Assembly (NCBI GenBank): GCA_018303485.1
Contig: JAGVYC010000008.1
Location: forward strand, 1 to 61,610
Source: Candidatus Woesearchaeota archaeon
Lineage (GTDB): Archaea; Nanobdellota; Nanobdellia; SCGC-AAA011-G17; JACPNG01
Direction: 5' to 3'
DNA length: 61,610 nucleotides
Part shown: piece by piece, positions 42,764 to 60,106 of the stretch
How positions within the stretch are numbered: the stretch's first letter is position 1
Layout: every line of letters starts with the position of its first letter
Translations under genes and position numbers: made by a program
The notes under the pieces: model-generated
Seen by the model: the letters and a program-made list of their open reading frames with translations, nothing else
Database searches by the model: none
Told to the model about the DNA's origin: nothing

Positions 42764-43645
42764 ATGAAGTTCATGAAAAAAAGAGGGCAATTAACAGCTT
42801 TTGTTTTGGTCGGATTTGTTATTCTTATAGCAATTGTTCTGCTGACGGTATTATATATGTCATTGGCAAGAGTTTCTGTAAGCAACAAGCAGTTTGTCAA
42901 TGATAAGATTGAAGAAGTAAATGCATATGTAAAAGATTGCTTGGAAAATGGCCTTGTTAAAGGGTTAAGATTGGTTGGCACAGATGGCATAGAAGAATAT
43001 ATGAAATCAATTAACTGTCTAGGTGTATTGGGCAGTGTTTCTGGCATCGAAATCTATTCTACAGATGATGATATTAATGCAAGTTTAAATAATGATAAAA
43101 TTGATGCAAAGTATTTTGCTGATATTTCGATAAACAAAGGCAGCACAACATCTAGTTTAAACAGACTCGACTTTTCTTACAACCTTTACCAAGAATTTAA
43201 TGTTGATAAAGATAAAGATGGAAAAGCAGATACTGATTTAAGCCTAGGTTCTTTTGCAGGTGTTGGTGTTTTGACCATGCCAAGAGATATAGGCATAGAA
43301 CAGGGTAAGATAGTTGTTGGGATTAAGCCAAGGGAAAATGAGAACATGCTTAGTGATATAATTTATATTAACCCTGAGAATGATTTTAATCCTTTTGCTG
43401 CATTGAACATAGTTTATAGTAACTGCATTGATGGCAATACGGCGATAATCAATAGGCAGACATTAGAATCATTTCAAACAAGTTGTCTGCAGCTAAATGA
43501 GAATGTTTATGCCATATCTGAAATAAAAGAATCCTCTGAATACTTTGTTGGCTCTTGCAGTAATTTCAGATGCTGCTGGAACGGGAACTGCAATGCAAAT
43601 ACTGGAGAAAGCTGCATACCTTCAATTTATAATCCATGTCCATAA
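42764..43645 (+). CDS. secreted protein with an archaeal class III (type IV pilin-like) signal and a Cys-rich C-terminus
   Basis: MKFMKKRGQLTAFVLVGFVILIAIVLL (KRGQ followed by a hydrophobic helix). The C-terminus is GSCSNFRCCWNGNCNANTGESC. Confidence 0.55.
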   Translation: MKFMKKRGQLTAFVLVGFVILIAIVLLTVLYMSLARVSVSNKQFVNDKIEEVNAYVKDCLENGLVKGLRLVGTDGIEEYMKSINCLGVLGSVSGIEIYSTDDDINASLNNDKIDAKYFADISINKGSTTSSLNRLDFSYNLYQEFNVDKDKDGKADTDLSLGSFAGVGVLTMPRDIGIEQGKIVVGIKPRENENMLSDIIYINPENDFNPFAALNIVYSNCIDGNTAIINRQTLESFQTSCLQLNENVYAISEIKESSEYFVGSCSNFRCCWNGNCNANTGESCIPSIYNPCP

Positions 43646-43648
43646 TGA

Positions 43649-44257
43649 TTAATATAATCTAGCAATTCTAACTAAAACATCCATGTTTTGATCGGGTATG
43701 TCTTTAATAATGGGGTTCTCTCCATCATAACGATGGGCTATTGTTCTATTATTAATTCCCTCAAAATCTATAGAATTTATGATGTTTACGATGTTTTTAA
43801 AACCCTCTTTAGATTCATTAGGACTAAAATAAATACAAGTACCATCACCTTGTACATTACACCCTCTAGACACATTATTTGCAAAATCATCTATATCTAA
43901 AATTCCGTTCCTATCTCTGTCTTCATTATTGAAAGCTAAATCTTCTAGTCCATTATGGTAAACCGTTATATCACATTCCCCATTAGCGCAAGGATCAACA
44001 GTGCATTCTCTTTCAATTTCTGGCTTGTCATAAGTTGTTCCGCATTCATTAAGATCCCGGCAGACTCTGTACTGATTTCCATCTCTCTGGCAAGAGCCCC
44101 AGTCATTGCAAACCCAGTCTTCTATGCAGCCATTTCCACCATCGCCATTATCTGAACTTCCAGAAGAAGAGCCGCAAGAAACAAGATAAGACAAGCTTGC
44201 TACTGCTATTGCTGTTCTTAGGAATTTGCTGTTTCTAATATTATCTGTTAATGACAT
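43649..44257 (-). CDS. secreted lipoprotein-like protein with a Trp/Cys module
   Basis: Signal with LVSCGSSSGSSDNGDGG, then CIEDWVCNDWGSCQRDGNQYRVCRDLNEC. Confidence 0.6.
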   Translation of the reverse strand: MSLTDNIRNSKFLRTAIAVASLSYLVSCGSSSGSSDNGDGGNGCIEDWVCNDWGSCQRDGNQYRVCRDLNECGTTYDKPEIERECTVDPCANGECDITVYHNGLEDLAFNNEDRDRNGILDIDDFANNVSRGCNVQGDGTCIYFSPNESKEGFKNIVNIINSIDFEGINNRTIAHRYDGENPIIKDIPDQNMDVLVRIARLY

Positions 44258-44298
44258 GCCTTTTTATAGGAAAGAAAGGCTTAAAAGGGTTTTGCTGG

Positions 44299-44512
44299 CA
44301 TTGAAACATCTTGCTTAAGTTTAGATAATGATATTTATGCCATATCTGAAATAAAAGAATCCTCTGAATATTTTGTTGGCTCTTGTGTGCGGTGAATGTC
44401 CTGTTATAGCAAGTGATTCAGGTGGATCCGGGTCGCAAGAACCAGCTAATCCTCAGCAACCACCAGAAAATCAACCAGTTGAGCCGGATAATTCACCTGG
44501 TTGGAACCCTTA
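44299..44512 (+). pseudogene. decayed 3' fragment of a paralog of 42764-43645
   Basis: Reads IETSCLSLDNDIYAISEIKESSEYFVGSCVR* compared with FQTSCLQLNENVYAISEIKESSEYFVGSCSN in the intact gene. A shifted frame continues with VCGECPVIASDSGGSGSQEP. There is no 5' part. Confidence 0.6.
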
Positions 44513-44992
44513 ATTTCTATTATAAGATAATGTGTGAGATATAGAAACAGAATTACCATAATCATCTGTGCCGTTATATGTTACCATAAATCTTTCAGAA
44601 GAACAGTTGCTATCCCATTCATCAGGTATGTTTATCGAACTTTTTGGCTGTATTGATTTAAGTATATTTTCTCTTACCTCTCCACCACCACATGTACTAC
44701 CAACTATTCTAGATGTTAATGTAACGCCGGTTCCATTAAGTTCTGTTATATTATCTGAATAATAATGCGTTATGAATCCTGCTGGTGGATCTCTTGCTGG
44801 ACCGCCGCAAACTGCTTGATCAGTAGGACCGCAAACCAATTCAACCTTTAATCTTGCAGGCAAATTATTTCCACCATCGCCATTATCTGAACTTCCAGAA
44901 GAAGAGCCGCAAGCTATAGCATAAGCTAAGATGCTGGTTGCTGCAACTGTTCTTAGGAATTTGCTGTTTCTAATCTTATCTGTTAATGACAT
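44510..44992 (-). CDS. secreted lipoprotein-like protein, paralog of 43649-44257 at the N-terminus only
   Basis: The first ~43 aa and the upstream leader are near-identical to the neighbour (MSLTDKIRNSKFLRT...CGSSSGSSDNGDGGN). The remainder is unrelated. Confidence 0.6.
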   Translation of the reverse strand: MSLTDKIRNSKFLRTVAATSILAYAIACGSSSGSSDNGDGGNNLPARLKVELVCGPTDQAVCGGPARDPPAGFITHYYSDNITELNGTGVTLTSRIVGSTCGGGEVRENILKSIQPKSSINIPDEWDSNCSSERFMVTYNGTDDYGNSVSISHTLSYNRN

Positions 44993-45218
44993 GCCTTTTT
45001 ATAGGAAAGAAAGGCTTAAAAGAGTTTTGCTGAGTTTCGGCAATTCTGAAAATACCATTGTTTTTAACCCACAAACCATATTTCTTGCAATAATTCCGGA
45101 AATTTTGCGAAATAAATATATACAATATATAAAATATATACCATACATTTATATAGATGTTACTTCTATCTCGTGGTATTAATAAAAGAATGGTGGAATT
45201 ATGTATGTTGGGGGTAAA

Positions 45219-47332: not shown

Positions 47333-48586
47333 TCAAGGCAAGTCTTTCAGGTACTGCCAGAGGGTTTTGAACATAATTTCAGCAACTTTTTTGTTTCCTA
47401 GGTCGTTAAAGTGCATGAACTCGCCAGTTATACCATCATCAGCTACAAAATAGCGTTTTTTATTTGAATCTTCATTAATATGCTTCTCTAAATCTATTAA
47501 GATTAAATTTTGCTTTAAAGCTAGATTTCTTACAGCAGGGTTCAGAGAGTTTCTATTGTAACGATACCAATCATTTTTTTCTATAAATATCAAACATTCT
47601 GGTGGTATACTAGGCAAATCAAAATCTTCAAAATCGTCTGGTGTTGTTGTTAAAGTAATTTTAATATTATTTTCTTTGCCCTTATTTATGATTTTAACTA
47701 GATTATCTAAGGTTGTAGTAGGATTATAATCATCCATATGTGATTGTTTACCTACCTGAACTGTGCCGTCAAATTTTATTTTTAGTTCATTACGTGCGCG
47801 TTTAAGCAAATAGACCCTTGTGGCTAAAGCGTCAGCAGTTCGTAGTCCTAAACGTCTAAAGTTTTTCTTATAGGTTTCAAATATCTTGATGTGGTTTTCA
47901 TACCAGGGACCTAATGATCTTAGTGCTTCAGAGTCGGCTAATCCCAAAAAGAAATTTTTAAGTGTCCCACGTTCTTTATCGCTTAATAAAGCGCAACTAC
48001 CAACATCATTCCATTCTGGGCCATAAATAACTAAATCAGGTCTTAAAGTTACTATATCATAAACGAACCTCTTTAAGATCAATGAGCTATTATATCCTAC
48101 TATAGCACCATTAATAACTTCAAATTTTATCGTTTTATTATTCGCTTTACCTTTTTTATTTAATTTATCCTCTAAATATTCAGGATAATTTCCAAAAGAT
48201 GTTGAACCACCTAAAACAACAATTCTATATACATTTTCTGGCTTCATCCTTGAAAATTCATCTCCTTTAAAGCCCATGGAGTTTATTTCAAAATCCTCAG
48301 TTCTATAATTTTTAACTAAGCACCATGGGACATCATAATCACATTTTTTTGTATACATAAGAGCCTCATTACTTGCCATATAATATTTATTAAGGTAACA
48401 TAAGCCATAAAAGAACATAAAGCTCGTGACCAATGAATAAATTAATTTCTTCTTTATGCTTAACCCCTTTATGTTGTTGTCTTTTCCAATTTTATTAGTA
48501 TTTTTCATAATACTACCTAAATTGATTAACCTACTTTTTCTTGTGCTTATCACATTATTATTTTTGTCTAATATTTCTTCCAGCAT
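47333..48586 (-). CDS. membrane-anchored SGNH/GDSL-like hydrolase or acyl-esterase
   Basis: N-terminal TM anchor, block I-like VVLGGSTSFG, block III-like YGPEWND, and block V-like DGITGEFMHFNDLG. Confidence 0.6.
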   Translation of the reverse strand: MLEEILDKNNNVISTRKSRLINLGSIMKNTNKIGKDNNIKGLSIKKKLIYSLVTSFMFFYGLCYLNKYYMASNEALMYTKKCDYDVPWCLVKNYRTEDFEINSMGFKGDEFSRMKPENVYRIVVLGGSTSFGNYPEYLEDKLNKKGKANNKTIKFEVINGAIVGYNSSLILKRFVYDIVTLRPDLVIYGPEWNDVGSCALLSDKERGTLKNFFLGLADSEALRSLGPWYENHIKIFETYKKNFRRLGLRTADALATRVYLLKRARNELKIKFDGTVQVGKQSHMDDYNPTTTLDNLVKIINKGKENNIKITLTTTPDDFEDFDLPSIPPECLIFIEKNDWYRYNRNSLNPAVRNLALKQNLILIDLEKHINEDSNKKRYFVADDGITGEFMHFNDLGNKKVAEIMFKTLWQYLKDLP

Positions 48587-48630
48587 TTAATTTAAATAAC
48601 AATAAACAAATATAAACCTTTTTATTGTTT

Positions 48631-49827
48631 TCAAGGCAAGTCTTTCAGGTACGGCCAGAGTGTTTTGAAAGCTGAATCTACCATAATATTCATTCCTGCA
48701 GGAGTATAATGCATCATATCTGTAAAAAATGGACTTTTGTCTGTAAACCTATTAAAAGTGCGATCAAAATCCAAAAGTGTAATGCCATAATCATTTGTTA
48801 ATTTTCTTATCATAGGATTCAACTGCTTTCTATTATACGCACAATTGTCATTAGACCCAAAGATAATATTACATAATCCATTAAAATCTTTAGATATTTC
48901 ATAAACTTCAAAGGCATCTGGTGTTGTGCTTAAAACTATATGTCTAATATCATTTTTTCTAGCAGTTTCTATAAAAGATACCATGTTACCTTCAGTATAT
49001 GCTGGAGAAAAATCATCCATATGTGATATATATCCAAAGTCACTTCTTTCCAGGTCTTTGCGTGGAATGCTATTTTGTGGGTTATTGCTAGAATGTACAA
49101 AAATACTTTTTGCTGCACTTATTAAATACAATTTTTTCATTACTTCATTATTAATTTTTCTAAATTCATATTCTACAGTTTTTCTTTTTTCAAATTCTCC
49201 CTTGAATACATCAAGATGTTTTTCATACCAATTACCTAAAGATATTAATGCGTCTTCCCCAATATTGCCTTCAAAATACCATTTAAGAGTTTCTCTCTCT
49301 CTCATATTAAGCAGGTCGCACATCCAGAGGTCATTCCATTCTGGGCCATAAATGATCATATCTAGTTTTAAGTATGTTAAATTGTTTAAATCATCTAATA
49401 TTTGTCTGCTACTTTTGCCAGGAACGGCAGTATTGATAATATGGACATTTGTTCTTTTATTTAGACTATGAAGTTTATTATTTAATATTATTTCGAGTTG
49501 ATTTGGATAGGCCATAGATGTAGAACCTCCAAACCATGCAGCATAGAACATACCTTTTTCTTTTTCTTGTGGTTTTTCGTATACATATGAATTTGTTTGT
49601 TGTTTTTGACAATGCCTATAATATATTTCTGAAGAAAAAATAGTTGTAAATAATATTAAAGAGGTTAATGCCGAATAAGCTAATTTTTTCTTAACAGTTA
49701 ATTTATGAAACCCTTCATTATCACCCCTCAAAGACTTTATTTTGTATATTATGCTTGCTAGATTGATTAATTCTCCTTTTCTTGTGCTTATCACATTATT
49801 ATTTTTGTCTAATATTTCTTCCAGCAT
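48631..49827 (-). CDS. membrane-anchored SGNH/GDSL-like hydrolase, tandem paralog
   Basis: WFGGSTSMAYP, YGPEWND, FFTDMMHYTPAG. The first 17 codons plus 35 nt of upstream sequence are identical to the neighbour. Confidence 0.6.
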   Translation of the reverse strand: MLEEILDKNNNVISTRKGELINLASIIYKIKSLRGDNEGFHKLTVKKKLAYSALTSLILFTTIFSSEIYYRHCQKQQTNSYVYEKPQEKEKGMFYAAWFGGSTSMAYPNQLEIILNNKLHSLNKRTNVHIINTAVPGKSSRQILDDLNNLTYLKLDMIIYGPEWNDLWMCDLLNMRERETLKWYFEGNIGEDALISLGNWYEKHLDVFKGEFEKRKTVEYEFRKINNEVMKKLYLISAAKSIFVHSSNNPQNSIPRKDLERSDFGYISHMDDFSPAYTEGNMVSFIETARKNDIRHIVLSTTPDAFEVYEISKDFNGLCNIIFGSNDNCAYNRKQLNPMIRKLTNDYGITLLDFDRTFNRFTDKSPFFTDMMHYTPAGMNIMVDSAFKTLWPYLKDLP

Positions 49828-49960
49828 TTAATTTAAATAACAATAAACAAATATAAACCTTTCTATGATTTACTACTCAATAATTATAAACATAATTTAT
49901 AAATAAGTATATTAATATTAAATAATATACAATTAATATTAATCATAAAATAAGTATAAA

Positions 49961-50155
49961 ATGGAATTGAAAAGAAAGATCTACAAAAGGGGAAGTTCTT
50001 ATGAAACAACAATCCCACAGCCATTACTATTCAAGCTAGATATTGACAAGAAGAAATATCAAATAATCTTTAAGTTCGACAATCAGGCAGATAAATGGTA
50101 CATTGAATTTGAAAATATAAAGAAAGTTAAAAAAGAGGATGAAAAGAAGAGATAA
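49961..50155 (+). CDS. AbrB/SpoVT-like small DNA-binding protein, copy 1
   Basis: KIYKRGSSYETTIPQPLLFKL is a looped-hinge-helix-type N-terminus. The 3' end overlaps the giant ORF start by 17 nt. Confidence 0.55.
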   Translation: MELKRKIYKRGSSYETTIPQPLLFKLDIDKKKYQIIFKFDNQADKWYIEFENIKKVKKEDEKKR

Positions 50156-53100
50156 TAAAGTAAAAAAGAAAGTAAAGAAAAACATCAAAATCTTTGTAAT
50201 ACTAGTCAGTATTATCTTGGCTTTGTTAATAATTAAAATTATAAATATTCAAGAGATTACCGGATTTGCCGTTTTGACAACAATAACCCAGGCTAATTTC
50301 AATGCGGGAACCTATAACGAAACATTTTATAATACAACAACGCTGGCTGTGCAGTTAAATTTAACTGATGACAGAGCAATTTTGTCTGGTAATTATACAA
50401 GCCAGGTATTTGATGCTGTTATTGCTACAAATTGGAGGAATTTATCATGGACAGAGAATATAACAAATAGATCTGGAAATGTTTCATTTAGAGTAAGAAG
50501 CTGTTTTACTTCTAATTGCGCTGAGCAAAGGCCTTTTGTCGGCCCCGATAATACAACAATTACATACTTCTGGCAGAGTAATCTTAGTTTGTTAAATAAT
50601 ACCCTAACACCAGATTCAAGATATTTCCAGTACATGGCTTTCTTTGCTGCATTGGACAATGATTCAAATGCTGATGGGCCAATATTGCACAATGTAAGCG
50701 TTGATTATGGTGATTGTGTTGAACCAATAAATGATATGTATATCAATGAAAATACAACTTTATGCTTTGGAACTTTTTATGTTAATGATACTGATGGTGA
50801 CAGTAATGTAATAACAATAAGCAATGATTCTGTTTTTGTAACCTGCAATAAAACTAATCTGGTTGGAAATCTATCTGGAAACGGATTTTATTTAAACTCT
50901 AAGTCTTATGTGACAATTAGTGGTTGTTGGATGGTTAATTATACAACTGCTATAAGATTAATTACATCCAATTTTACAACTATCACTGAGAATAACATAA
51001 CAAATATAACAGTTAGTGGTATAAGAATTAGTGATTATTCCAATAGCAATATTATAGATAATAATTCAATTATGTTTGCAAATGGTAGCAGTACAGCAGC
51101 TATTTTCTTACAAAGTAACAGCTTAAACAACACTGTCAAAAAAAATTTGATAAAACATAATGGCAATAAAGGACTTGATATTAATGCAGGTAACACTACA
51201 ATAATAAATAATACCATTATTAATAATACCTATGGGATAAGTGTTGGTTCTGTATTAAATATAACAATAGCTAACAATACCATAGCGTATAATGATCTGG
51301 ATGGTATAAATGGAGCGGGCAATGGTGGTTGGAATAGCAGCCTTATTTATGACAATTTTATAATTGGTAATCTTGGTAGTGGTGGATGCGCAGGTAGTTT
51401 TGGTATTAATATTATTCTTTCATACAATAACTACTTTTACAATAATATTCTTAATAATAGTGGATGTGATGTATATGATAATGGTCAAAACTTCTGGAAC
51501 ACTAGCAATTATTCAGGAACGAATATTATAGGGGGGCCTATGATTGGAGGCAATTACTATTCTGATTATGGATTTTATGATTATTATTCTGATGGAGATG
51601 GAATTGGAGAGCTAAGCTACAGGAATGGCCTAATTAATAGCTATGATGCACTGCCTTTAACAAACAGCAGATGCCTAGTACCAAATAATATTCCAAGAAT
51701 AGAAAGAAGTGTTGTTTTATGTCCTGGCATATATAGTGTTGTAGATAATAGCGATAATGGTGCAATGAACATTACAAATTCATCTGTAATAATAGAATGC
51801 AACCAAACAAGAATAATCGGTACTAGAAATCAAGAAAGAATAATAAATACCAATCCTGGTAGCGGCCAATTGACAAATATAACAGTAAAAAACTGCTATT
51901 TTGAACCACGAGGAGCAGCTATACAAATGATCAATACAAGCTCCAGTTACATTTATGACAATGTAATCAATATGTCTGCAAATGTCATAACTACAATATA
52001 CCTTTACAATGTCAATAACAGCTTAATTGCAAATAACACTTTTGCAAATACATCTAATGAAGCAATAGAGATGAATGACGTAAGCAATAGCATATTTGAA
52101 AACAACACTATATGGAAAATTTCTGGTCATGGCATGGAGTTTGAGAGCAAGCTGCCATCAACAAATGTAACCATAAGAAACAACTTGATAAACTATACCG
52201 TCAGTAACGGCATAACAAGCAATGTAGGCACTGCAATTTATATAAACAACTCAAAATTTTACAATAACACTTTTGCAAATATTGGCGCAACTGGTGATGG
52301 CAGTGTTGAAGCTTGCATTGTTATAGCTGGTTTTGGAAATGAATTCATTGGCAATAAACTCTTAAATTGTACAGGCATTGGAATAAGCTCTGGTTTAGGC
52401 GTTACAGGTGCCATAGTAAATTCAGGCGATAGTTACTTCATAAAATCCAATACAGTAAATGGAACAGCAAACAATAATAATCCTGTATTTAACATCCAGG
52501 GTTCAAATATAACAATAATAAACAACACAATTGAGCGCAGAGGGACTGGAACAGCCATAGCAATGTCATTGAAGGATATAAATAATTCTTACATAGTCAA
52601 TAATACAATAATGAATATTTCATACGGCATAGTTATTTCAGATGGCGATGTAAATCCCTCGGGCAGCTTAAACAGCAAAAACATAACAATAACTGGAAAT
52701 GTATTTTTGAACATAACTAATAATGCAATGATTCTGGCAGGCGACAACTTTACGATTTACAATAATACTCTGGTCTCATACACACCAAGCTCTATAACAG
52801 CCCCAGGAATTTATGGCATAAGCTTAAACAACTCCAAGGTATACAACAACACAATTTATAGGTATGCAGAAGGCATAGCAATATTCAACAGCGAGAATAC
52901 AAGCATAACAAACAATTCCTTGTACGAAAACATATTATTCGGCATAAACATAACCTCTTCCAAAAATATGTCAATAACCAACAACGCAATAAACAACAAT
53001 ACACAGCAGGGCATCCTAATATTAAAATCATCCAACATAACAGTAGAAAAAAACATAATATTCAACAACTCTAAAGACGGCATATCAGTAAACTTCTCAA

Positions 53101-55232
53101 ATTACACAATAATTATAAACAACACAATAAGAAACAATGTCATCTCAGGCATCTCCATATTCGGCTCTAATAGCACAAAGATATTAAACAATTCAATATT
53201 CAACAGCAAGAGGGATGGAATCTACATTGAAGACTCAGAAGGCATATCAATCTTAGAGAATATAATATTAAATAACTCGCAAAGTGGGATTTACGACCCA
53301 TCATCAAACAACTTGGTTTATAACAACAGCGAGGCAGGAATAAGATTAAATTCAAGCAATTACAGCATCATAGAAAATAACAATCTGAGCTACAATGGAA
53401 TAATCTCTTATGTTACAGAATTTTACATGAGCGCCGCTGTATATAGAAATGATGCTTTGGGTGCCGTATACAATTTCACTGCTACTGCTGGAGCGTCAGG
53501 CAGTGAATTTTTCTATATCCTCAATCTTGGGGAATCAATAAGCGTTGTAACAAACAATACAAACGTAAGCCTTCTTGTGAATGGAACAGCCAATGTACAC
53601 CTTGCCTTGGTGAAAATAAATTCTTCTGATATCGGCTGGGGGCATAGCAATCTGACAACATTCTTTGATAATAGCGTTGCCTCGAGCTGCTTGGGCATAG
53701 CACAATATATATCTAATACAGTTCTGCCCAACTCTGCAGATGAAACAAACTGCACGTACTTCCAGGCCAATATCTTCACTGCAAATGGCAATAACAATTA
53801 TACTTATAATGGATTGACAAATGCAACAATAACTCAAGACTCAAGAACTTTAACCCCATCATTATCAGCAGTTTCAACAGTAAACATTGCTAACTTAATC
53901 CTATCAGAATCATCAGATAATAATATAACAAACAACACCATAACATTAAGTTCTGGCTATGGTGTCTTGTTAGATACAGTGAATAATAGCATATTTACAA
54001 ACAACACAATTTTAAGGAATATACAGCCAGCTGTCAGGGCATTAGGAGATTCAAGCTTGATAAACAAAATAATAAACAGCACAAATGTAACAACAAGTGT
54101 TGCATCCAGCATACTGAAAGTCTACTGGTTCTTAATGGTTTATGCTCACGATGGAAATACAGCATTTGAAAACGTAAATGTTTCATTCTACAATAAAACA
54201 GGAATCTACATAACATCAGCTTTAACCTTAAGTCTTGGCTATACCCCTGAATTAACATTGCTTGAATACCAGCATGACGGTAATACAAGAACATATTATA
54301 CGAATTATACAACAAATGCAACAAGGCCAGGTACATTGGATAAGGCCTCAATATCCTATAACTTTACAAGCTCCAGTTTAGTTGATTTAAGCATGCCAGC
54401 TGATCAATCAGGAGGCGGCGGTGGCGGAGGCGGCGGTGGCGACAATCCACCAGGTGGCTGTACAGACGAATGTTCATCAGGCCAGAGAACTTGCTCAGGC
54501 TTATCTGCTTACAAAGAATGCGGCAATTATGATGATGATGTTTGCTTGGAATTTGGTTCTGGAAGAGCATGCAGTAATGACTTGAAATGTTACAGTGGAA
54601 ATTGTATTCTAGAATGCGCTCCAGACTGGCAGTGTTCTTCCTGGAGCTCTTGCATTAACGAAAAGCAAACAAGAACCTGCATAGACAAAAACATCTGCAA
54701 TTCTCAAAAGCCAATGGAAGAGATAAAATGCTCAGAATTAATTAAAATAAAAGAAGCAGCACCAGAATATAATGTAACATGCTTTGAAGCTAAAGGCCTT
54801 TCAGAAGAAGAAATAATTGTATATAGTGATTTGCTGAAAATAACTTCCTGCAAGGATGAAAGAGAAAAATTGGTAAATATAGATACGAGATTCAGGTGCA
54901 ATGGCATTGAAATAAGCATAAATGATGCCTCATTAAATATTGTTTACAAGGAAAAGCCTAGCTTCTTCCTTAACATGAATCAAAATGACCAGCATAAAAA
55001 ATACTGCCCATGGTGCTTCAATAATAAAAAAGACTATGATGAAACAGGCATTGACTGCGGAGGCTCTTGCATGCCTTGCAATGAAAAATCAAGGCTAGAA
55101 TTTCCATTAAAGCCAGCAAAGCCGGATTACAGGCTAGCAATTTTCATTGGAAGCTCAATGGTTGCAATATCTATTGGTTATTTGTTTTTATTCAGAAGAA
55201 AAAGAAATAGGAAAATAAAAAAATGGAATTGA
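50139..55232 (+). CDS. giant (1697 aa) surface protein: N-terminal anchor/signal, long parallel beta-helix repeat region, Gly linker, Cys-rich modules, C-terminal TM anchor
   Basis: Dozens of ~22-aa N-N-(T/S)-I...G-I repeats (PbH1-like) and very dense N-x-S/T sequons. Also a (GGN)10 tract, CAPDWQCSSWSSCINEKQTRTC, DETGIDCGGSCMPC, and a terminal LAIFIGSSMVAISIGYLFLF-RRKRNRK. Confidence 0.85.
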   Translation: MKRRDNKVKKKVKKNIKIFVILVSIILALLIIKIINIQEITGFAVLTTITQANFNAGTYNETFYNTTTLAVQLNLTDDRAILSGNYTSQVFDAVIATNWRNLSWTENITNRSGNVSFRVRSCFTSNCAEQRPFVGPDNTTITYFWQSNLSLLNNTLTPDSRYFQYMAFFAALDNDSNADGPILHNVSVDYGDCVEPINDMYINENTTLCFGTFYVNDTDGDSNVITISNDSVFVTCNKTNLVGNLSGNGFYLNSKSYVTISGCWMVNYTTAIRLITSNFTTITENNITNITVSGIRISDYSNSNIIDNNSIMFANGSSTAAIFLQSNSLNNTVKKNLIKHNGNKGLDINAGNTTIINNTIINNTYGISVGSVLNITIANNTIAYNDLDGINGAGNGGWNSSLIYDNFIIGNLGSGGCAGSFGINIILSYNNYFYNNILNNSGCDVYDNGQNFWNTSNYSGTNIIGGPMIGGNYYSDYGFYDYYSDGDGIGELSYRNGLINSYDALPLTNSRCLVPNNIPRIERSVVLCPGIYSVVDNSDNGAMNITNSSVIIECNQTRIIGTRNQERIINTNPGSGQLTNITVKNCYFEPRGAAIQMINTSSSYIYDNVINMSANVITTIYLYNVNNSLIANNTFANTSNEAIEMNDVSNSIFENNTIWKISGHGMEFESKLPSTNVTIRNNLINYTVSNGITSNVGTAIYINNSKFYNNTFANIGATGDGSVEACIVIAGFGNEFIGNKLLNCTGIGISSGLGVTGAIVNSGDSYFIKSNTVNGTANNNNPVFNIQGSNITIINNTIERRGTGTAIAMSLKDINNSYIVNNTIMNISYGIVISDGDVNPSGSLNSKNITITGNVFLNITNNAMILAGDNFTIYNNTLVSYTPSSITAPGIYGISLNNSKVYNNTIYRYAEGIAIFNSENTSITNNSLYENILFGINITSSKNMSITNNAINNNTQQGILILKSSNITVEKNIIFNNSKDGISVNFSNYTIIINNTIRNNVISGISIFGSNSTKILNNSIFNSKRDGIYIEDSEGISILENIILNNSQSGIYDPSSNNLVYNNSEAGIRLNSSNYSIIENNNLSYNGIISYVTEFYMSAAVYRNDALGAVYNFTATAGASGSEFFYILNLGESISVVTNNTNVSLLVNGTANVHLALVKINSSDIGWGHSNLTTFFDNSVASSCLGIAQYISNTVLPNSADETNCTYFQANIFTANGNNNYTYNGLTNATITQDSRTLTPSLSAVSTVNIANLILSESSDNNITNNTITLSSGYGVLLDTVNNSIFTNNTILRNIQPAVRALGDSSLINKIINSTNVTTSVASSILKVYWFLMVYAHDGNTAFENVNVSFYNKTGIYITSALTLSLGYTPELTLLEYQHDGNTRTYYTNYTTNATRPGTLDKASISYNFTSSSLVDLSMPADQSGGGGGGGGGGDNPPGGCTDECSSGQRTCSGLSAYKECGNYDDDVCLEFGSGRACSNDLKCYSGNCILECAPDWQCSSWSSCINEKQTRTCIDKNICNSQKPMEEIKCSELIKIKEAAPEYNVTCFEAKGLSEEEIIVYSDLLKITSCKDEREKLVNIDTRFRCNGIEISINDASLNIVYKEKPSFFLNMNQNDQHKKYCPWCFNNKKDYDETGIDCGGSCMPCNEKSRLEFPLKPAKPDYRLAIFIGSSMVAISIGYLFLFRRKRNRKIKKWN

Positions 55233-55393
55233 AAAGAAAGATCTACAAAAGGGGAAGTTCTTATGAAACAACAATCCCACAGACTTTACTATTCAAATTA
55301 GATATTGACAAGAAGAAACATCAAATAATCTTTAAGTTCGACAATCAGGCAGATAAATGGTACATTGAATTTGAAGAATTGCAACATTCATAG
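55223..55393 (+). CDS. AbrB/SpoVT-like gene, copy 2 (56 aa, altered C-terminus; below the ORF-track cutoff)
   Basis: The first ~153 nt are ~97% identical to 49961-50113 (5 mismatches). It reads MELKRKIYKRGSSYETTIPQTLLFKLDIDKKKHQIIFKFDNQADKWYIEFEELQHS*. Confidence 0.45.
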   Translation: MELKRKIYKRGSSYETTIPQTLLFKLDIDKKKHQIIFKFDNQADKWYIEFEELQHS

Positions 55394-55434
55394 CTGTTGG
55401 CTTGAGCTATCTTATTCTGTTCAGGAGAAGGTAG
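55381..55434 (+). pseudogene. remnant of a surface-protein C-terminal membrane anchor
   Basis: Reads ATFIAVGLSYLILFRRR*. It shares the 17-mer CATTCATAGCTGTTGGC with 56592-56608. Confidence 0.45.
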
Positions 55435-55454
55435 AACTACCTTAATATTTGGCG

Positions 55455-55468
55455 AAAGGCTTAAATAC
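55455..55468 (+). promoter_or_regulatory. BRE/TATA-like box AAAGGCTTAAATAC for the MNT gene (leaderless spacing)
   Basis: Centre is about 28 nt upstream of the ATG at 55491. Confidence 0.45.
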
Positions 55469-55490
55469 CAATGTAACATAATTGTTACAC

Positions 55491-56039
55491 ATGGAACAAA
55501 AAAGTTACAAATTGGAAATTGTAAATGAGCTTTTGAATAACAGCAACCATGTAAGGGGACTGGCAAAAGAACTAAACATAAATCACATGAATATATCAAG
55601 GAAAATAAAAGAGCTTGCAAAAGAAAATGTTGTGGATTACAAGGAAGAAGGTAAAAATAAGACATATTTTTTAAAGAAAAGTATAGAAGCAAGAAACTAT
55701 GCATTTCTAGCTGAAAACTATAAGTTAAACAGGTTTTTAGGAAGCTACCCTAATTTAAGGAGGGTAATTGAGAATATTCAAAAAGACAGGCGAATCAGAC
55801 TGGCAATTTTGTATGGATCTTATGCTAAGGGCATTGCTAAACCTAATAGCGATATCGATATTTATATCGACACAGACAACAAAATGATAAAGGAAGACCT
55901 TAGTTTATTTGATACAAAATTAAGCATAAAGACAGGTAGTTACAACAAATCCAACTTGTTGATTAAAGAAATTGAAAAGAACCATATTATACTAAAAGGT
56001 GTTGAACAATATTATGAAAAGAACAAATTTTTTGATTAA
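55491..56039 (+). CDS. wHTH + minimal nucleotidyltransferase (MNT) domain protein, antitoxin-type
   Basis: N-terminal HTH (VRGLAKELNINHMNISRKIKEL) and the NTase motif LYGSYAKG...SDIDIYID. Confidence 0.7.
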   Translation: MEQKSYKLEIVNELLNNSNHVRGLAKELNINHMNISRKIKELAKENVVDYKEEGKNKTYFLKKSIEARNYAFLAENYKLNRFLGSYPNLRRVIENIQKDRRIRLAILYGSYAKGIAKPNSDIDIYIDTDNKMIKEDLSLFDTKLSIKTGSYNKSNLLIKEIEKNHIILKGVEQYYEKNKFFD

Positions 56040-56490
56040 GTTAAATAAAAAAGGTATAATTGATATTGTAAAACCCAGCGACGAAATATCTCAGTCATAT
56101 ATTATGAAGTCTGAAAGCAATCTTATTTCTGCAAAAATTCTGTTGGCAAATGAGAGACTAGAAGAATCTGTTGGCCTTGCGTATTATAGTATGTATCACT
56201 CCCTAACAGCACTTTTATTTAAAATAGGTATAAAATCAGAAAATCATAATGCTTCAATAATCTTGCTAAAAGAATTAGTTGGTTTGTCTAATAATGATAT
56301 TCTCAATGCCAAAAAGGAAAGAGTGGACAAACAATACTATGTTAATTTTATGATAACAAAAGAGGCAGTTAATGACACTATAAAACAAGCTGAAAGATTC
56401 AATAGTCATATAGTGGATTTTATTTCAAAAATTAATAATGAAGATATTAATACTTATAGGAAAAAGTTTATCAAGTTAATTAAAGAGTAA
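56014..56490 (+). CDS. HEPN domain protein, toxin-type partner of MNT
   Basis: Helical ~158-aa protein overlapping the MNT 3' end. AYYSMYHSLTALL and KKERVDKQY fit HEPN helices. The pairing with MNT is the main evidence. Confidence 0.6.
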   Translation: MKRTNFLIKLNKKGIIDIVKPSDEISQSYIMKSESNLISAKILLANERLEESVGLAYYSMYHSLTALLFKIGIKSENHNASIILLKELVGLSNNDILNAKKERVDKQYYVNFMITKEAVNDTIKQAERFNSHIVDFISKINNEDINTYRKKFIKLIKE

Positions 56491-56533
56491 TGCTATATCA
56501 GAATTAGATATAAGTCTTGCGACATAAAACTGA

Positions 56534-56659
56534 AAGATCCCAATAAAGCTAGCAAAGCAGGATTACAGACCAGTTATTTTTGCTATTGCTGCATTCATAG
56601 CTGTTGGCATCTGGTATGCTCTCTTGTTTAAAAAAAAGATAAACAGACTATTTTTTTAG
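56534..56659 (+). pseudogene. remnant of a paralogous surface-protein C-terminus (stalk end plus TM anchor), no start codon
   Basis: Reads KIPIKLAKQDYRPVIFAIAAFIAVGIWYALLFKKKINRLFF*, compared with the giant protein end PLKPAKPDYRLAIFIGSSMVAISIGYLFLFRRKRNRK. Stop codons lie immediately upstream. Confidence 0.5.
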
Positions 56660-57223
56660 TCTTTTCAGAACGTCCTTAACAATATTTTTGTCAGGCAGTT
56701 TAGAATTTCCAAATTCATTAACAAAAGTCAAGATCTCAAGTCCATATTTTTTTTCATGCTCGTCTTCATCAGCGTAGCCCAAGGTTATTACAGCTTCAAC
56801 ATCAATATCGTCCGGTATTCTTAATATTCTTTTTATTGCAAAATCATCAAATGCAGCAACAAAGCAGCTTCCAAGCCTGTGCTCTAAGGCAGCAAGCATG
56901 ATATTCTGGCTTACAATAGCACAGTTCTGCACAGCATATTTTTTCCCGCGGTCTTCATATTCATCAATAACTTCATGCGGATCATTGCATACAACAACAT
57001 GAACAGGAGCTTCCAGCATCCACATCTGCCTTAAGCATGCGACAGAAATTTCTTTTCTTTTTTCTTCATCAGTAACTATTACAAATCTCCAGTTCTGCAG
57101 GTTTCCAGATGAAGGTGCTTCCTTTGCAGCATCCAATATTTCAAGAACATCTGTTATCTTTACACTCTTGTCCTTGTACTTTCTGACAGAGCATCTTTCT
57201 TTTATGGCTTCAAGTAATTGCAT
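56648..57223 (-). CDS. nitroreductase family protein
   Basis: RCSVRKYKDKSV, APSSGNLQNWRFVIV, and size ~190 aa. Confidence 0.8.
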   Translation of the reverse strand: MQLLEAIKERCSVRKYKDKSVKITDVLEILDAAKEAPSSGNLQNWRFVIVTDEEKRKEISVACLRQMWMLEAPVHVVVCNDPHEVIDEYEDRGKKYAVQNCAIVSQNIMLAALEHRLGSCFVAAFDDFAIKRILRIPDDIDVEAVITLGYADEDEHEKKYGLEILTFVNEFGNSKLPDKNIVKDVLKRLKK

Positions 57224-57260
57224 GATAAAACATTTAAACTGAATCTTTTTATAGTTTTCT

Positions 57261-59001
57261 ATGGATTATGGCTTATTGGTAGATTGTTATGAATCTTTAA
57301 ATAAAACAACAAAAAGGCTTGAAAAAACCTACATAATCTCAAAATTGCTAAAAAAAATACAAAAAGAAGACATTCAACAGGTAATCTATCTTCTTCAAGG
57401 CCTTGTCTTTCCTCCTTGGGACGAGCATAAACTAGGCATGAGTTCTTTGCTCATAGTCAAAGCCCTATCATCTATAACTGGAAATTCAAAAGAAAAAGTC
57501 GAAAAGCTATGGAAAAAAGAAGGAGACCTAGGCTTGGTTTCAGAGCTGTTAATCAAAGACATAAAGCAAAAAACATTAATGCAGAAAAAACTTACAACGA
57601 GCTTGATTTTTAACAACTTAAGAAAGCTCGCAGAATTAACAGGGAAAGGGGCAATAAACAGAAAAATCCAGCTTCTTTCAGAATTGCTTGCAAACTCCAG
57701 GCCATTGGAATCGAAGTATATAGTAAAAACAGTCCTGAATAATTTAAGGATAGGCATAGCAGAAGGCATTATAAGGGATGCAATTGTCTGGGCATTTTTC
57801 GAGCATGAAATAAAATTCAGCTATAATGAGAAAGAAAACATATTTGATGTTAATAGGGAAGATTACAACAAGTACATTGATGCAATTCAGTCAGCATATG
57901 ATGTTACAAATGATTACGGTGAAATAGCTTTGATAGCATTGGCAAGAGGATTGCAGGGATTAAAAGAGACCCAGATAGACATAAGCAAGCCAATAAATCC
58001 AATGCTGGCCATAAGGGTAGAATCAGTAGATGATGCGCTAGAAGCATTGGGCACTCCTGTTTTATGCGATTTAAAATTAGATGGCTTCAGGTTATTGATT
58101 CATAGAAAAGAAAACAAGTTCTGGTTTTACACTAGAAGATTGGAAAATGTTACAAAACAGTTTGCAGAGTTAATGCCAATACTGAATGATTGCATCAAAG
58201 GCTCTTCTTATATCATAGATTCAGAAGTTGTTGGTTATGATCCAAAAACAAAAAAATATCTTCCTTTTCAGGCAATCTCTCAAAGGATAAAAAGAAAGTA
58301 TAATATAGAAAAAATAGCAAAGGAGGTTCCAGTTGAGATAAATATATTTGATATAGTGTATTACAATGGCAAGCCTTTGCTTGAGCATCCGCAAATGGAA
58401 AGGCGCGAGCTGCTTGAAAAGATAGTTAAAGAAATTCCTAATAAAAAAAAAAATAATAAGTTCAGATCCAAGAGAAATACAAGGGTTCTTTGATAATGCA
58501 ATACGCCTTGGCCTTGAAGGAGTCATGGTAAAAAATATAAATACCAAGTATGTATCTGGAAGAAAAGTAGGCGGCTGGATTAAGCTAAAGGCAATTCCTG
58601 AAACATTAGACCTGGTTATAACAGAGTCTGATTATGGCGAAGGAAAAAGAGCAAAGACCTTGAGCAGTTATACAGTTTCATGTTCATCCAAGAACAAGCT
58701 GCTTGTTGTTGGCAAGGTCTCAACAGGTGTAAAAGAAAAAGAAGGGGAATTTACCTATTCAGAAATTACAAAATTATTAAAGCCGTTAATTATGATGGAG
58801 GAGGGAAAGCATGTCATCTTGAAGCCATGGCTTGTAATAGAAGTTGCTTATGAAGAAATACAAAGATCTCCAAAATACGAATCAGGTTTTGCATTAAGAT
58901 TTCCAAAAGTATTAAGAATCCGCTTGGATAAGGGTGTAAAAGACATTTCTGCATTGGCAGATATAGAAAGAATCTACAAAAAACAGAAAGGAAAAAGATA
59001 A
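57261..59001 (+). CDS. lig: ATP-dependent DNA ligase, reading frame broken at an A11 tract (58443-58453)
   Basis: ORF 57261-58493 carries the DNA-binding and adenylation domains (CDLKLDGFRLLIH). ORF 58525-59001, in the +1 frame, carries LEGVMVK, GGWIKLK and the OB domain. Reading IISSDPREIQGFFDNAIRLGLEGVMVK in the second frame bridges the gap. Confidence 0.8.
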
Positions 59002-59281
59002 TCTTCAATATATATAATGAAACCTTCACTCATTCATTATTGTTTGATAGCACAAAATAATTTATAAATAAAATAAAATAACTACTTTAGAATAGAAACT
59101 CATTATTTTTCTTAATTTAATAATTAAAAAATAATAATCTTTAAATACCAGCGTATTACTATTAAACCTAAGTTTATATTGAGACAAAGTAAATAACACT
59201 AATTAATATTGACAAGTGGTTAATAACAATTACACAAAAACAAAATTAAAAAAGGGGTTTTACCTGGGAGGGTAGTGCAGA

Positions 59282-60106
59282 ATGATTGTAAAAGAAGACT
59301 TTTTAAACAAGTTAAGACGTTCATTTAACCTTAATCTTTATGAAGTAAGGATTTGGACAGCATTGTTGTCAAGGGGCGTTTCAACCGCAGGAGAGTTGTC
59401 AGACATTGGTAATGTTCCTAGATCAAGAGCTTATGATGTTCTCGAGTCTTTAGAAAAAAAGGGTTTTGTTGTTCTCAAGCTTGGTAAGCCTATAAAATAT
59501 ATTGCAGTTGAACCAAAAGAAGTTGTTGAAAGGGTTAAGAAGAATATCAGGGAAGAATCAGACAACTCTGTCAAAAGATTAGAAGACTTAAGGGGAACAG
59601 ATGTTCTTAAGGAGCTTGATACATTGCACAGTGAAGGCATTGAGTTTGTTGAATCATCTGATCTGTCTGGTGCAATAAGAGGCAGGCATAATATCTATAC
59701 ACATTTGGAGCTTATGGTAAAGAACGCCCAGAAAAGTGTCAACATAATGACAACATCAAAGGGCTTAATAAGAAAAGTCGAGGCTTTGAAGCCAGAGCTT
59801 GAAAAATTAAGCAAAAAGAATGTTAAAATAAGAATTGCAGCCCCATTAAACAAGGAATGCTCAGCAGCTGCAAAAGACCTGTTGAAAGTAGCTGATATAA
59901 AGTCCATTGATAAGATAGCAGCCAGGTTCTGCATAATTGATGGCAAGGAGCTAATGTTTATGATAATGGATGATGCTGATGTCCATCCAACTTATGATGT
60001 TGGAATATGGATAACAACACCTTTCTTTGCAAATGCATTGAATGGATTGTTCGAAATTGCATGGAAGGACATGGATCCGGCAGACAAGATTCTTTCTAAA
60101 ATCTAA
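59282..60106 (+). CDS. TrmB family transcriptional regulator
   Basis: LYEVRIWTALLSRGVSTAGELSDIGNVPRSRAYDVLESLEKKGFV wHTH plus a C-terminal effector-like domain. Confidence 0.8.
   Translation: MIVKEDFLNKLRRSFNLNLYEVRIWTALLSRGVSTAGELSDIGNVPRSRAYDVLESLEKKGFVVLKLGKPIKYIAVEPKEVVERVKKNIREESDNSVKRLEDLRGTDVLKELDTLHSEGIEFVESSDLSGAIRGRHNIYTHLELMVKNAQKSVNIMTTSKGLIRKVEALKPELEKLSKKNVKIRIAAPLNKECSAAAKDLLKVADIKSIDKIAARFCIIDGKELMFMIMDDADVHPTYDVGIWITTPFFANALNGLFEIAWKDMDPADKILSKI

What the first reader, a model, noticed from the sequence alone, without database searches (positions are those of the whole stretch)
49961..55393. 5.1-kb giant surface-protein gene is bracketed by ~153-nt direct repeats that are two copies of an AbrB-like gene
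49961-50113 and 55223-55375 differ at only 5 positions. Each begins with the ATG of an AbrB/SpoVT-like ORF.
- Copy 1 overlaps the giant ORF start by 17 nt, suggesting translational or transcriptional coupling.
- Copy 2 starts 9 nt before the giant ORF stop and then diverges into a different C-terminus fused to an anchor remnant.
Homologous recombination between the repeats would precisely delete, or in reverse capture, the whole surface-protein gene and leave one regulator gene. This could be an on/off or swap mechanism for the dominant surface antigen, or the scar of cassette exchange between paralogous loci.
Basis: seen in the sequence. Interest (0 to 1): 0.65.

Follow-up and report, generated by a model that had tools for sequence, protein, structure and literature searches.

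The report
Surface-protein gene flanked by duplicated small gene
In a Woesearchaeota-like (DPANN) archaeon from aquifer metagenomes, a 5.1-kb surface-protein gene lies between two near-identical copies of a small conserved gene. The second copy looks like the head of a decayed neighbouring gene module kept similar by gene conversion, and I found no sign of a working on/off switch.

Summary
49961-50113 and 55223-55375 match at 148 of 153 positions, and each starts a small ORF. The overlaps with the 1697-aa beta-helix surface-protein gene are as described.

The "AbrB-like" label is not verified. The small protein belongs to a small DPANN-only family with no Pfam, PDB-sequence or Foldseek match. 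Only its beta-beta-alpha-beta-beta order and its tandem-fused homologues resemble AbrB.

In relatives this small gene heads many different downstream genes, often giant surface proteins. Four other genomes carry two such modules in tandem, with copies only 81-83% identical.

In the window, copy 2 keeps the whole conserved core but runs into the last 19 codons of another membrane anchor. A third anchor remnant lies behind an NTase/HEPN pair. I read this as a decayed tandem array with gene conversion between the two heads.

The layout recurs in more than 20 independent contigs. Three short contigs show the predicted deletion or reciprocal junction. However, the repeat is longer than any assembler word size, and each of these contigs has only 33-91 nt on one side.

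K-mer depth puts the giant gene at the same depth as its flanks in three runs. A frequent deletion allele is therefore excluded and a rare one stays open. Raw reads were not available.

The parts
49828..49960 (.). Upstream intergenic region (I flank), 133 nt, 10.5% G+C. It is the presumed promoter region for the small-gene/giant-gene operon.
   Evidence: It is conserved in 11 contigs. L012 carries 3 SNPs here and L022 carries 1.
49961..50155 (+). Small gene copy 1, 64 aa: conserved core (aa 1-51) plus a basic tail NIKKVKKEDEKKR. Its last 17 nt overlap the giant gene.
49958..50113 (+). Repeat R1 (153 nt plus 3 nt), haplotype A (CAGCT at the five variable sites; P21, Y33).
50139..55232 (+). Giant surface-protein gene, 1697 aa. 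It has an N-terminal membrane or signal segment and right-handed beta-helix repeats. It carries 99 N-x-S/T sequons (about 48 expected), a poly-Gly linker, a Cys-rich C-terminal region, and a C-terminal membrane anchor with a basic tail.
   Evidence: Pfam Beta_helix 4e-45 and NosD 2e-40; composition and hydrophobicity.
55220..55375 (+). Repeat R2 (153 nt plus 3 nt), haplotype B (ATATC; T21, H33). The giant gene's last two codons and its stop lie inside it.
55223..55393 (+). Small gene copy 2, 56 aa. It keeps the complete conserved core and has the short tail ELQHS.
   Evidence: Intact family members are as short as 52 aa.
55375..55434 (+). Anchor remnant b: RIATFIAVGLSYLILFRRR*, the last 19 codons of a lost large gene. 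It is out of frame with copy 2. The junction lies at about 55376-55383, where the letters ATTG could belong to either side.
   Evidence: repeat family D8; variant tail seen.
55491..56039 (+). HTH plus nucleotidyltransferase gene (MNT-like), 182 aa.
   Evidence: Pfam Polbeta and NTP_transf_2.
56014..56490 (+). HEPN-domain gene (HepT-like), 158 aa, overlapping the nucleotidyltransferase gene.
   Evidence: Pfam HEPN.
56534..56659 (+). Anchor remnant c: KIPIKLAKQDYRPVIFAIAAFIAVGIWYALLFKKKINRLFF*. It has no upstream ORF and is homologous to the giant protein's last 45 residues.
   Evidence: tblastn E = 1e-7.

Best explanation
The two repeats are the conserved cores of two paralogous copies of a small DPANN-specific gene. 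In this lineage that gene sits at the head of operons, very often directly in front of a giant membrane-anchored surface protein.

The locus is a decayed tandem array of such modules:
- Module 1 (small gene plus the 1697-aa gene) is intact.
- Module 2 keeps only the core of its small gene and the last 19 codons of its large gene. A microhomology-type deletion, or an illegitimate join made during a cassette replacement, removed the rest.
- Of a third large gene only 41 codons remain, behind an NTase/HEPN toxin-antitoxin-like pair.

The two small-gene cores stay 97% identical because of gene conversion (non-reciprocal homologous recombination), not because of a dedicated switch.

The same homology could allow occasional unequal crossing-over that deletes or duplicates the 5262-bp unit. 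If that happens at all, it is rare in the sampled populations.

Shown: the anatomy, the family, the tandem modules in relatives, the stability of the layout, and equal depth of the gene and its flanks.

Inferred: the order of events, gene conversion, and the function of the small protein. I take it to be a dimeric nucleic-acid-binding regulator or a coupling partner co-translated with the downstream gene.
For: - Family: 26 clusters at 90% identity and 107 representatives at 50% identity. All 165 genome loci found come from MAGs and SAGs, mostly labelled Woesearchaeota or Nanoarchaeota.
- The conserved core ends at ...WYIEFEE, which is exactly the end of the repeat.
- The small gene is followed on the same strand, often with a 4- or 8-nt overlap, by variable genes. 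About 12 of 80 are giant proteins with an N-terminal membrane segment. See also L027, L110 and L111.
- L111 is a homologous small-gene/giant-gene module from another organism at the same site. It has a single module and a natural gene end.
- Tandem modules with two small-gene copies occur in L027, L040, L068 and SAG AM-311-B02. Copy identity was measured in the first three and is only 81-83%.
- In the window the cores are 97% identical, while the anchor segments a, b and c are only 57-70% identical.
- Three anchor ends lie in a row.
- The tail of R2 (E-E-L) still fits the family consensus and a variant allele tail, ELKEVKKEDEK.
- Haplotypes A and B each occur at both positions in other assemblies: L002 is B/B; L001 and L018 carry A at R2.
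- K-mer depth of the repeat contig fits one B copy per genome in run X4 (39.1 = 1.47 x 26.6) and two A copies in run X1 (22.8 against 12.3).
- The canonical layout is seen 11 times at each repeat.
- The giant gene has the same depth as its flanks in X1, X2 and X4.
- No recombinase domain appears among the neighbours' precomputed Pfam hits.
Against: - No intact module 2 or module 3 was recovered, so the decayed-array history is a reconstruction.
- The haplotype-exchange evidence comes from multi-k assemblers (IDBA-UD, MEGAHIT) and from Logan contigs that pop bubbles. All of these can create false links.
- The k-mer depth for X2 fits neither model (12.0 against an expected 16 or 22).
- 97% identity could also come from a recent copy event instead of conversion.
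- The function of the small protein is unknown.
Confidence: 0.62

Rival explanations
1. This is a recombination switch or cassette swap. Homologous recombination between R1 and R2 regularly deletes the giant gene and leaves one small gene. The reverse reaction re-captures the gene or a variant from a circle or a tandem copy. That would give population-level on/off or allele exchange of a surface protein.
For: - L012 joins the upstream intergenic flank through R to the ELQHS tail and the NTase gene. This is exactly the predicted deletion product.
- L003 and L018 join the giant gene's 3' end through R to the copy-1 tail and the giant gene's 5' end. This is the predicted circle or duplication junction.
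- L018 (G-A-T1) and L012 (I-B-T2) are the reciprocal products of a crossover in the first 60 nt of an A/B genome.
- L003 continues into a giant allele that diverges sharply after the signal peptide. Fragments P0132 and P0133 show further alleles.
Against: - The repeat (156 nt) is longer than the assembler word sizes named in the contig ids (k127, k141) and far longer than Logan's 31, so these junctions add no new words and can be graph mis-joins.
- All three contigs have only 33, 59 or 91 nt on one side.
- Depth of the giant gene relative to its flanks is 0.93-1.05 in X1, X2 and X4.
- There are 22 canonical repeat crossings against 3 non-canonical ones.
- No recombinase gene is nearby, and there is no regulatory logic for a switch.
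Confidence: 0.17
2. R2 is a recent copy and not an old paralogue. A tandem duplication of the R-tail-giant unit was followed by loss of most of the second unit. Alternatively, homology-facilitated illegitimate recombination brought in a foreign small-gene/giant/small-gene fragment and replaced a resident large gene. In that case no gene conversion is needed.
For: - 97% identity with sharp borders at -3 and +153.
- Anchor b differs from anchor a, as expected if b belongs to a displaced resident gene.
- A possible ATTG microhomology at the right junction.
Against: - Tandem modules are a recurrent native layout in relatives.
- Both haplotypes appear at both positions.
- A simple tandem duplication would leave an anchor remnant identical to anchor a, which is not seen.
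Confidence: 0.17
3. The duplicated repeat is an assembly artefact, or the five differences come from mixing strains in a consensus.
For: The window carries two private deletions, 84 nt at 53305 and 11 nt at 58446, that are not seen in the other assemblies.
Against: - The same two-copy layout with the same A/B assignment is found in L004, L005 and L006, from other samples and pipelines.
- All four junction word sets are present in every well-covered run.
- In X4 the B-specific words are present at single-copy depth.
Confidence: 0.03

Closest known systems
Concerted evolution and gene conversion between tandem paralogues, with direct-repeat-mediated deletion or duplication by RecA/RadA-type homologous recombination
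   Same: There are two direct repeats of 153-156 nt at 97% identity, far more alike than their surroundings. Both sequence variants are seen at both positions. The predicted deletion and duplication junctions are seen as contigs.
   Different: No read-level proof of either recombinant was possible. The deletion allele is not detectable by depth. There is no evidence that the event is regulated or selected.
AbrB / SpoVT / MazE swapped-hairpin DNA-binding proteins
   Same: The unit is about 50 aa with beta-beta-alpha-beta-beta order, and it contains an AbrB-like x-T-I-P-x-x-L motif (this resemblance is from my own knowledge). It evidently pairs, because many homologues are tandem fusions of two units. 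It sits first in the operon, like many small regulators and antitoxins.
   Different: There is no significant Pfam hit. The best is PrlF_antitoxin in 4 of 23 members at E of 0.068 or weaker. There is no PDB sequence hit. The high-confidence model of a tandem homologue has no Foldseek match in the PDB (best E 0.068, TM 0.26).
Hypervariable large surface-protein modules of archaea (for example the Ig-domain module of Thermococcales, PMC8416519) and the variable giant surface proteins of DPANN/CPR organisms
   Same: A very large, glycosylation-rich, membrane-anchored protein with strain-level allelic divergence, lying in a locus littered with gene fragments and a toxin-antitoxin-like pair.
   Different: The domains differ (beta-helix/NosD here). 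A conserved small leader gene is present here. I read only the abstract of that paper, from a search listing.
MNT/HepT (nucleotidyltransferase/HEPN) toxin-antitoxin pairs
   Same: Adjacent, overlapping HTH-NTase and HEPN genes lie directly behind copy 2.
   Different: The pair is a neighbour, not part of the repeat system. It lies between two anchor remnants, which suggests it arrived during the turnover of the locus.

Membership tests
AbrB/SpoVT/MazE superfamily | Significant match to a family profile (PF04014 or related families such as PrlF or MraZ) | tested here: not met
   Pfam scans of both copies and of 23 family members gave nothing above threshold. PrlF_antitoxin matched only 4 of 23 members, at E of 0.068 or weaker. 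A profile search of PDB sequences gave no relevant hit.
AbrB/SpoVT/MazE superfamily | A unit of about 50 residues with beta-beta-alpha-beta-beta order that forms a dimer | tested here: met
   The AF2 model of a tandem-fused homologue (pLDDT 91.8, pTM 0.82) has this order in each half. The monomer model has low confidence but is compatible. Many homologues carry two units in one chain. This shows topology only, not the swapped-hairpin barrel itself.
AbrB/SpoVT/MazE superfamily | Three-dimensional similarity to solved AbrB, MazE or MraZ structures | tested here: not met
   Foldseek against the PDB gave a best E of 0.068 and TM of 0.26-0.28, all to unrelated Ig-like chains. The viral library returned only uncharacterised proteins with TM about 0.55 and E about 0.02. 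Small domains are hard for Foldseek, so this is weak negative evidence.
AbrB/SpoVT/MazE superfamily | Sequence-specific DNA binding and autoregulation | not testable with these tools
   This needs EMSA or footprinting on 49828-49960.
Direct-repeat recombination switch (deletion or amplification polymorphism) | Direct repeats long and similar enough for homologous recombination flank the unit | tested here: met
   148 of 153 positions identical, with exact blocks of 63 and 56 nt.
Direct-repeat recombination switch (deletion or amplification polymorphism) | Both the full and the precisely deleted allele coexist in the population | tested here: inconclusive
   L012 has the deletion junction but only 91 nt of left flank, and it could be a mis-join. 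Depth of the giant gene equals that of its flanks in X1, X2 and X4. No raw reads were available.
Direct-repeat recombination switch (deletion or amplification polymorphism) | The reciprocal product (tandem duplication or circle junction) is present | tested here: inconclusive
   L003 and L018 have the junction, but with only 33 and 59 nt of left flank.
Gene conversion between paralogues | The paralogues are far more alike than their flanking homologous sequence and than equivalent paralogues in relatives | tested here: met
   97% for the repeats, against 57-70% for the anchors and 81-83% for tandem copies in L027, L040 and L068.
Gene conversion between paralogues | The same variant tract is found at either position in different genomes | tested here: inconclusive
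   L002 is B/B and L001 and L018 have A at R2. K-mer depth favours A/A in X1 and A/B in X4. Assembler artefacts cannot be ruled out without reads.
Site-specific recombination systems (integron, shufflon, invertible element) | A recombinase or integrase gene and specific sites at the borders | tested here: not met
   No recombinase domain appears among the precomputed Pfam hits for genes across about 20 kb of the locus. My own Pfam scan covered the nine genes nearest the repeats. The repeats are coding sequence in direct orientation.

The most novel reading that the evidence does not exclude
The small gene may act as a portable homology handle, and perhaps also as a translational coupler, shared by many large surface-protein cassettes in Woesearchaeota. 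RadA-type recombination between handles would then really delete, duplicate and exchange whole cassettes at low frequency. L012, L003 and L018 would be true molecules. That would be a recombinase-independent, cassette-shuffling system for the cell surface of DPANN archaea.
Probability: 0.18. Interest if true: 0.65.

Novelty: new member of a known kind. Interest (0 to 1): 0.36.

Why it matters
DPANN archaea depend on cell-cell contact, and their giant surface proteins vary between strains. How those genes turn over is poorly documented.

This locus gives a concrete picture of that turnover. It has modules headed by a conserved, unannotated small gene, two decayed modules left as anchor stumps, a toxin-antitoxin-like pair in the debris, and two heads kept almost identical.

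If read-level data confirmed the deletion and junction forms, the locus would be a testable case of recombination-driven surface variation in an uncultured archaeal lineage.

Separately, the small-protein family is confined to DPANN genomes and has a confident predicted structure with no match among solved structures. It is a reasonable target for structural and DNA-binding work.

Tried and rejected
- An exact scan of metagenome contigs for a 32-nt piece of the repeat found nothing, so that collection lacks these samples.
- Raw reads: all ten runs that hold the locus are served only as Logan contigs built with 31-letter words. These break at the repeat and pop the A/B bubble.
- No RNA runs hold the stretch.
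- A loose end at 49956 was not reproduced.
- A "joint" from 49952 to 59237 rests on AT-rich matches of about 25 nt. I judged it spurious.
- I looked for intact versions of the lost large genes. A profile of the three anchors found nothing. The N-terminus of the L003 variant giant found only two 134-aa fragments, and one of them is not on record in any contig.
- The bacterial promoter and terminator scan is uninformative for an archaeon.
- The monomer AF2 model was too poor for fold search.
- Rejected idea, an integron or shufflon-like element: there is no recombinase. No diversity-generating retroelement turned up either, but I did not look for one.
- Rejected idea, a specific chaperone for giant proteins: the small gene also precedes a beta-CASP-type hydrolase, a P-type ATPase and a zinc-ribbon protein. 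Those three identifications are by sequence inspection only.
Full report
**1. Observation**

The two stretches 49961-50113 and 55223-55375 are identical at 148 of 153 positions. They differ only at 50021, 50023, 50035, 50036 and 50057, and exact identity starts 3 nt further left. This is the longest direct repeat in the window. Its longest exact block is 63 nt, against 15-17 nt in shuffled sequence.

Each repeat starts with the ATG of a small ORF. Copy 1 (49961-50155, 64 aa) overlaps the start of a 1697-aa ORF (50139-55232) by 17 nt. Copy 2 (55223-55393, 56 aa) begins 10 nt before the end of that ORF. It diverges after codon 51 into ELQHS*. Of the five differences, two are synonymous and three fall in two codons (P21T and Y33H).

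The large protein has Beta_helix and NosD repeats. It also has an N-terminal membrane segment, 99 N-x-S/T sequons (about twice the expectation), a Cys-rich C-terminal region and a C-terminal membrane anchor.

**2. Surroundings**

Behind R2, in another frame, lies RIATFIAVGLSYLILFRRR* (remnant b, 55375-55434). An HTH-nucleotidyltransferase gene and a HEPN gene follow. After them comes a second orphan anchor, KIPIKLAKQDYRPVIFAIAAFIAVGIWYALLFKKKINRLFF* (remnant c, 56534-56659). Remnant c matches the giant protein's last 45 residues.

So three anchor-coding ends lie in a row, and only one is attached to a gene. Upstream are two tandem GDSL-like paralogues on the other strand.

The window has 33.7% G+C and archaeal housekeeping genes. 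The nearest relatives of its genes are labelled Woesearchaeota.

**3. The small protein**

It belongs to a compact family: 26 clusters at 90% identity, 107 representatives at 50% identity, and 165 loci in species-representative genomes. All are from DPANN-type MAGs or SAGs. Some records carry a "Methanosarcinales" label, which I suspect is a naming problem.

The conserved core runs from the start to ...WYIEFEE, which is exactly the extent of the repeat. Intact members are as short as 52 aa, so copy 2 keeps the whole core.

The AbrB/SpoVT label is not confirmed:
- No Pfam family reaches threshold. PrlF_antitoxin matches 4 of 23 members at E of 0.068 or weaker.
- There is no relevant PDB sequence hit.
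- The monomer model is poor (pLDDT 64).
- Many homologues are tandem fusions of two units. One of them gives a confident model (pLDDT 91.8, pTM 0.82) with beta-beta-alpha-beta-beta in each half.
- That model has no Foldseek match in the PDB (best E 0.068, TM 0.26). In the viral library it matches only uncharacterised proteins.

The unit therefore pairs and has AbrB-like strand order. Membership is unproven.

**4. Context in relatives**

In 80 genome loci the small gene is almost always followed on the same strand by another gene, often with a 4- or 8-nt overlap. That gene varies. By sequence inspection the partners are:
- a beta-CASP-type hydrolase of about 420 aa;
- a zinc-ribbon protein of about 110 aa;
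- a P-type ATPase of about 880 aa;
- in about a dozen loci, a giant protein (550 to more than 2600 aa) with an N-terminal membrane segment.

L027 and L111 also show small-gene/giant-gene modules, and L110 shows the small gene ahead of a large gene cut off at more than 796 aa. The L111 giant is a homologue of the window's giant from another organism at the same site. It has a single module and a natural gene end.

Four genomes carry two modules in tandem: L027, L040, L068 and SAG AM-311-B02. In the three where I measured it (L027, L040, L068), the two small-gene copies are only 81-83% identical in DNA. So a giant gene bracketed by two copies of this small gene is a recurrent native layout. What is unusual in the window is the 97% identity and the truncation behind copy 2.

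**5. Population data**

The locus was assembled many times from the same aquifer system, by different pipelines and in different years.
- The canonical left context (intergenic-R-tail 1) occurs in 11 contigs.
- The canonical right context (giant 3' end-R-tail 2) occurs in 11 contigs.
- Four long contigs span both repeats.

The five variable sites always travel together, as haplotype A (CAGCT) or B (ATATC). The window, L004, L005 and L006 are A at R1 and B at R2. L002 is B at both. L001 and L018 have A at R2.

Three contigs are non-canonical:
- L012 (1496 nt) joins the upstream intergenic flank through R to tail 2 and the NTase gene. This is the precise deletion form.
- L003 (531 nt) and L018 (3251 nt) join the giant gene's 3' end through R to tail 1 and the giant gene's 5' end. 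This is the duplication or circle junction.
- L003 continues into a giant allele that diverges sharply after the signal peptide.

**6. How far these contigs can be trusted**

The repeat (156 nt) is longer than the word sizes in the contig names (k127 for L003, k141 for L018) and far longer than Logan's 31. From my own knowledge, IDBA-UD also uses words of roughly 100-124. The deleted and duplicated forms therefore contain no word that is absent from the normal form.

Each of the three contigs has only 91, 33 or 59 nt on one side. From my own knowledge of these tools, multi-k assemblers can carry chimeric paths forward.

The only run data served here are Logan contigs. These break at the repeat and pop the A/B bubble. 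So neither the recombinant junctions nor the haplotype swaps are proven.

**7. What k-mer depth does show**

Depth is derived from the reads themselves.

| Run | Flank contigs | Giant gene | Source |
|---|---|---|---|
| X1 | 13.1, 13.1, 13.2, 12.3 | 12.6, 12.0 | |
| X2 | 10.8-12.3 | 10.9 | |
| X4 | 20.5-26.3 | 26.6 | |

A deletion allele above roughly 10% is excluded in these samples.

The repeat contig in X4 has depth 39.1. That equals 1.47 times 26.6, as expected if B-specific words occur once per genome. In X1 the repeat contig is 22.8 against 12.3, which fits two A copies better than one. X2 fits neither model. So the A/B state of the window is real in at least one sample, and an A/A state probably exists in another.

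**8. Interpretation**

The best reading is a decayed tandem array of small-gene/large-gene modules. Module 2 lost the tail of its small gene and nearly all of its large gene. The right border lies at about 55376-55383.

Two observations fix that border:
- The E-E-L after the repeat still fits the family consensus and a variant allele tail, ELKEVKKEDEK.
- Homology to anchor c starts at ATTGC. This suggests a short microhomology join.

The anchors are old paralogues (57-70% identical), while the two cores are 97% identical. That points to gene conversion, or to a recent replacement event. The same homology makes unequal crossing-over possible, but there is no evidence that it is frequent, regulated or used as a switch. 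No recombinase gene is present nearby.

The rivals are a true recombination switch, a recent duplication or foreign cassette capture without conversion, and an assembly artefact. The last is essentially excluded.

**9. Novelty and score**

Direct-repeat-flanked variable genes, concerted evolution of paralogues and decaying surface-protein loci are all known kinds of things. This is a new, well-documented instance in a DPANN archaeon, built around a small-protein family for which no database used here supplied a functional name.

Interest is moderate. It would rise if reads confirmed the junction forms.

Noticed in passing
window 55375-55434 and 56534-56659, with 55491-56490 between them: Two orphan C-terminal membrane-anchor fragments of lost large genes lie here. 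An HTH-nucleotidyltransferase/HEPN (MNT/HepT-like) gene pair sits between them. In a relative (L110), a HEPN/NTase pair likewise sits between a large gene and a small-gene/large-gene module.
   Followed up: partly
window about 53305: The window lacks 84 nt, one 28-residue beta-helix coil (FNITISNNIISNNSDAGIFLLKTINSTIS), that every other assembly spanning this site has. The giant protein is 1697 aa here and 1726-1729 aa elsewhere. This is either a strain variant or a collapsed repeat in this assembly.
   Followed up: partly
window 58446 (DNA ligase ORF 57261-58493): An 11-nt deletion (GTAATGCTCAC) relative to the other assemblies examined frameshifts the ATP-dependent DNA ligase, giving a 410-aa ORF instead of 583 aa. 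A contig from run X4 carries the 11 nt. This is a possible assembly error or a pseudogene.
   Followed up: partly
window 47333-49880 (repeat families D3, D4 and D10); L017, L019, L023: Two tandem GDSL-like paralogues have upstream regions 87% alike. Three contigs join 48625 to 49758, as if one paralogue were deleted. This is the same kind of repeat-mediated variant, or assembler mis-join, as at the main locus.
   Followed up: no
window 43473-45032 (repeat families D2 and D5); Logan joint 43581 to 44388: Another pair of tandem paralogues on the minus strand. Logan contigs of X1, X2 and X4 skip 806 nt here at depths of 9.5, 10 and 25.3, close to full genome depth. L002 has about 75 extra nt at two points. 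The window may differ structurally from most of the population here.
   Followed up: no
window 51373-51379 and 54409-54441: Indel hot spots lie inside the giant gene. TGG and GTGGTG insertions occur in different runs and contigs at 51373-51379. Contig breaks with variable sequence occur at the poly-Gly linker (GGGGGGGGGGD).
   Followed up: no
proteins P0027-P0034, P0037, P0046, P0047 and P0055 (homologues, not in the window): Tandem-fused two-unit versions of the small protein exist (100-127 aa). One gives a confident AF2 model (pLDDT 91.8) with no match among solved structures, so this may be an undescribed small fold or a very divergent AbrB-like one.
   Followed up: partly
L003 212-529; P0132, P0133: Divergent alleles of the giant gene share the signal-peptide region, then differ by about 10-20% right after it. 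P0133 also has a different signal region. This points to several co-existing surface-protein alleles or paralogues in the aquifer.
   Followed up: partly
window 59400-59520: The start of the TrmB-like gene shows word depth 5-20 times the genome depth in all runs. This short stretch is therefore shared with many other organisms or loci in the community.
   Followed up: no
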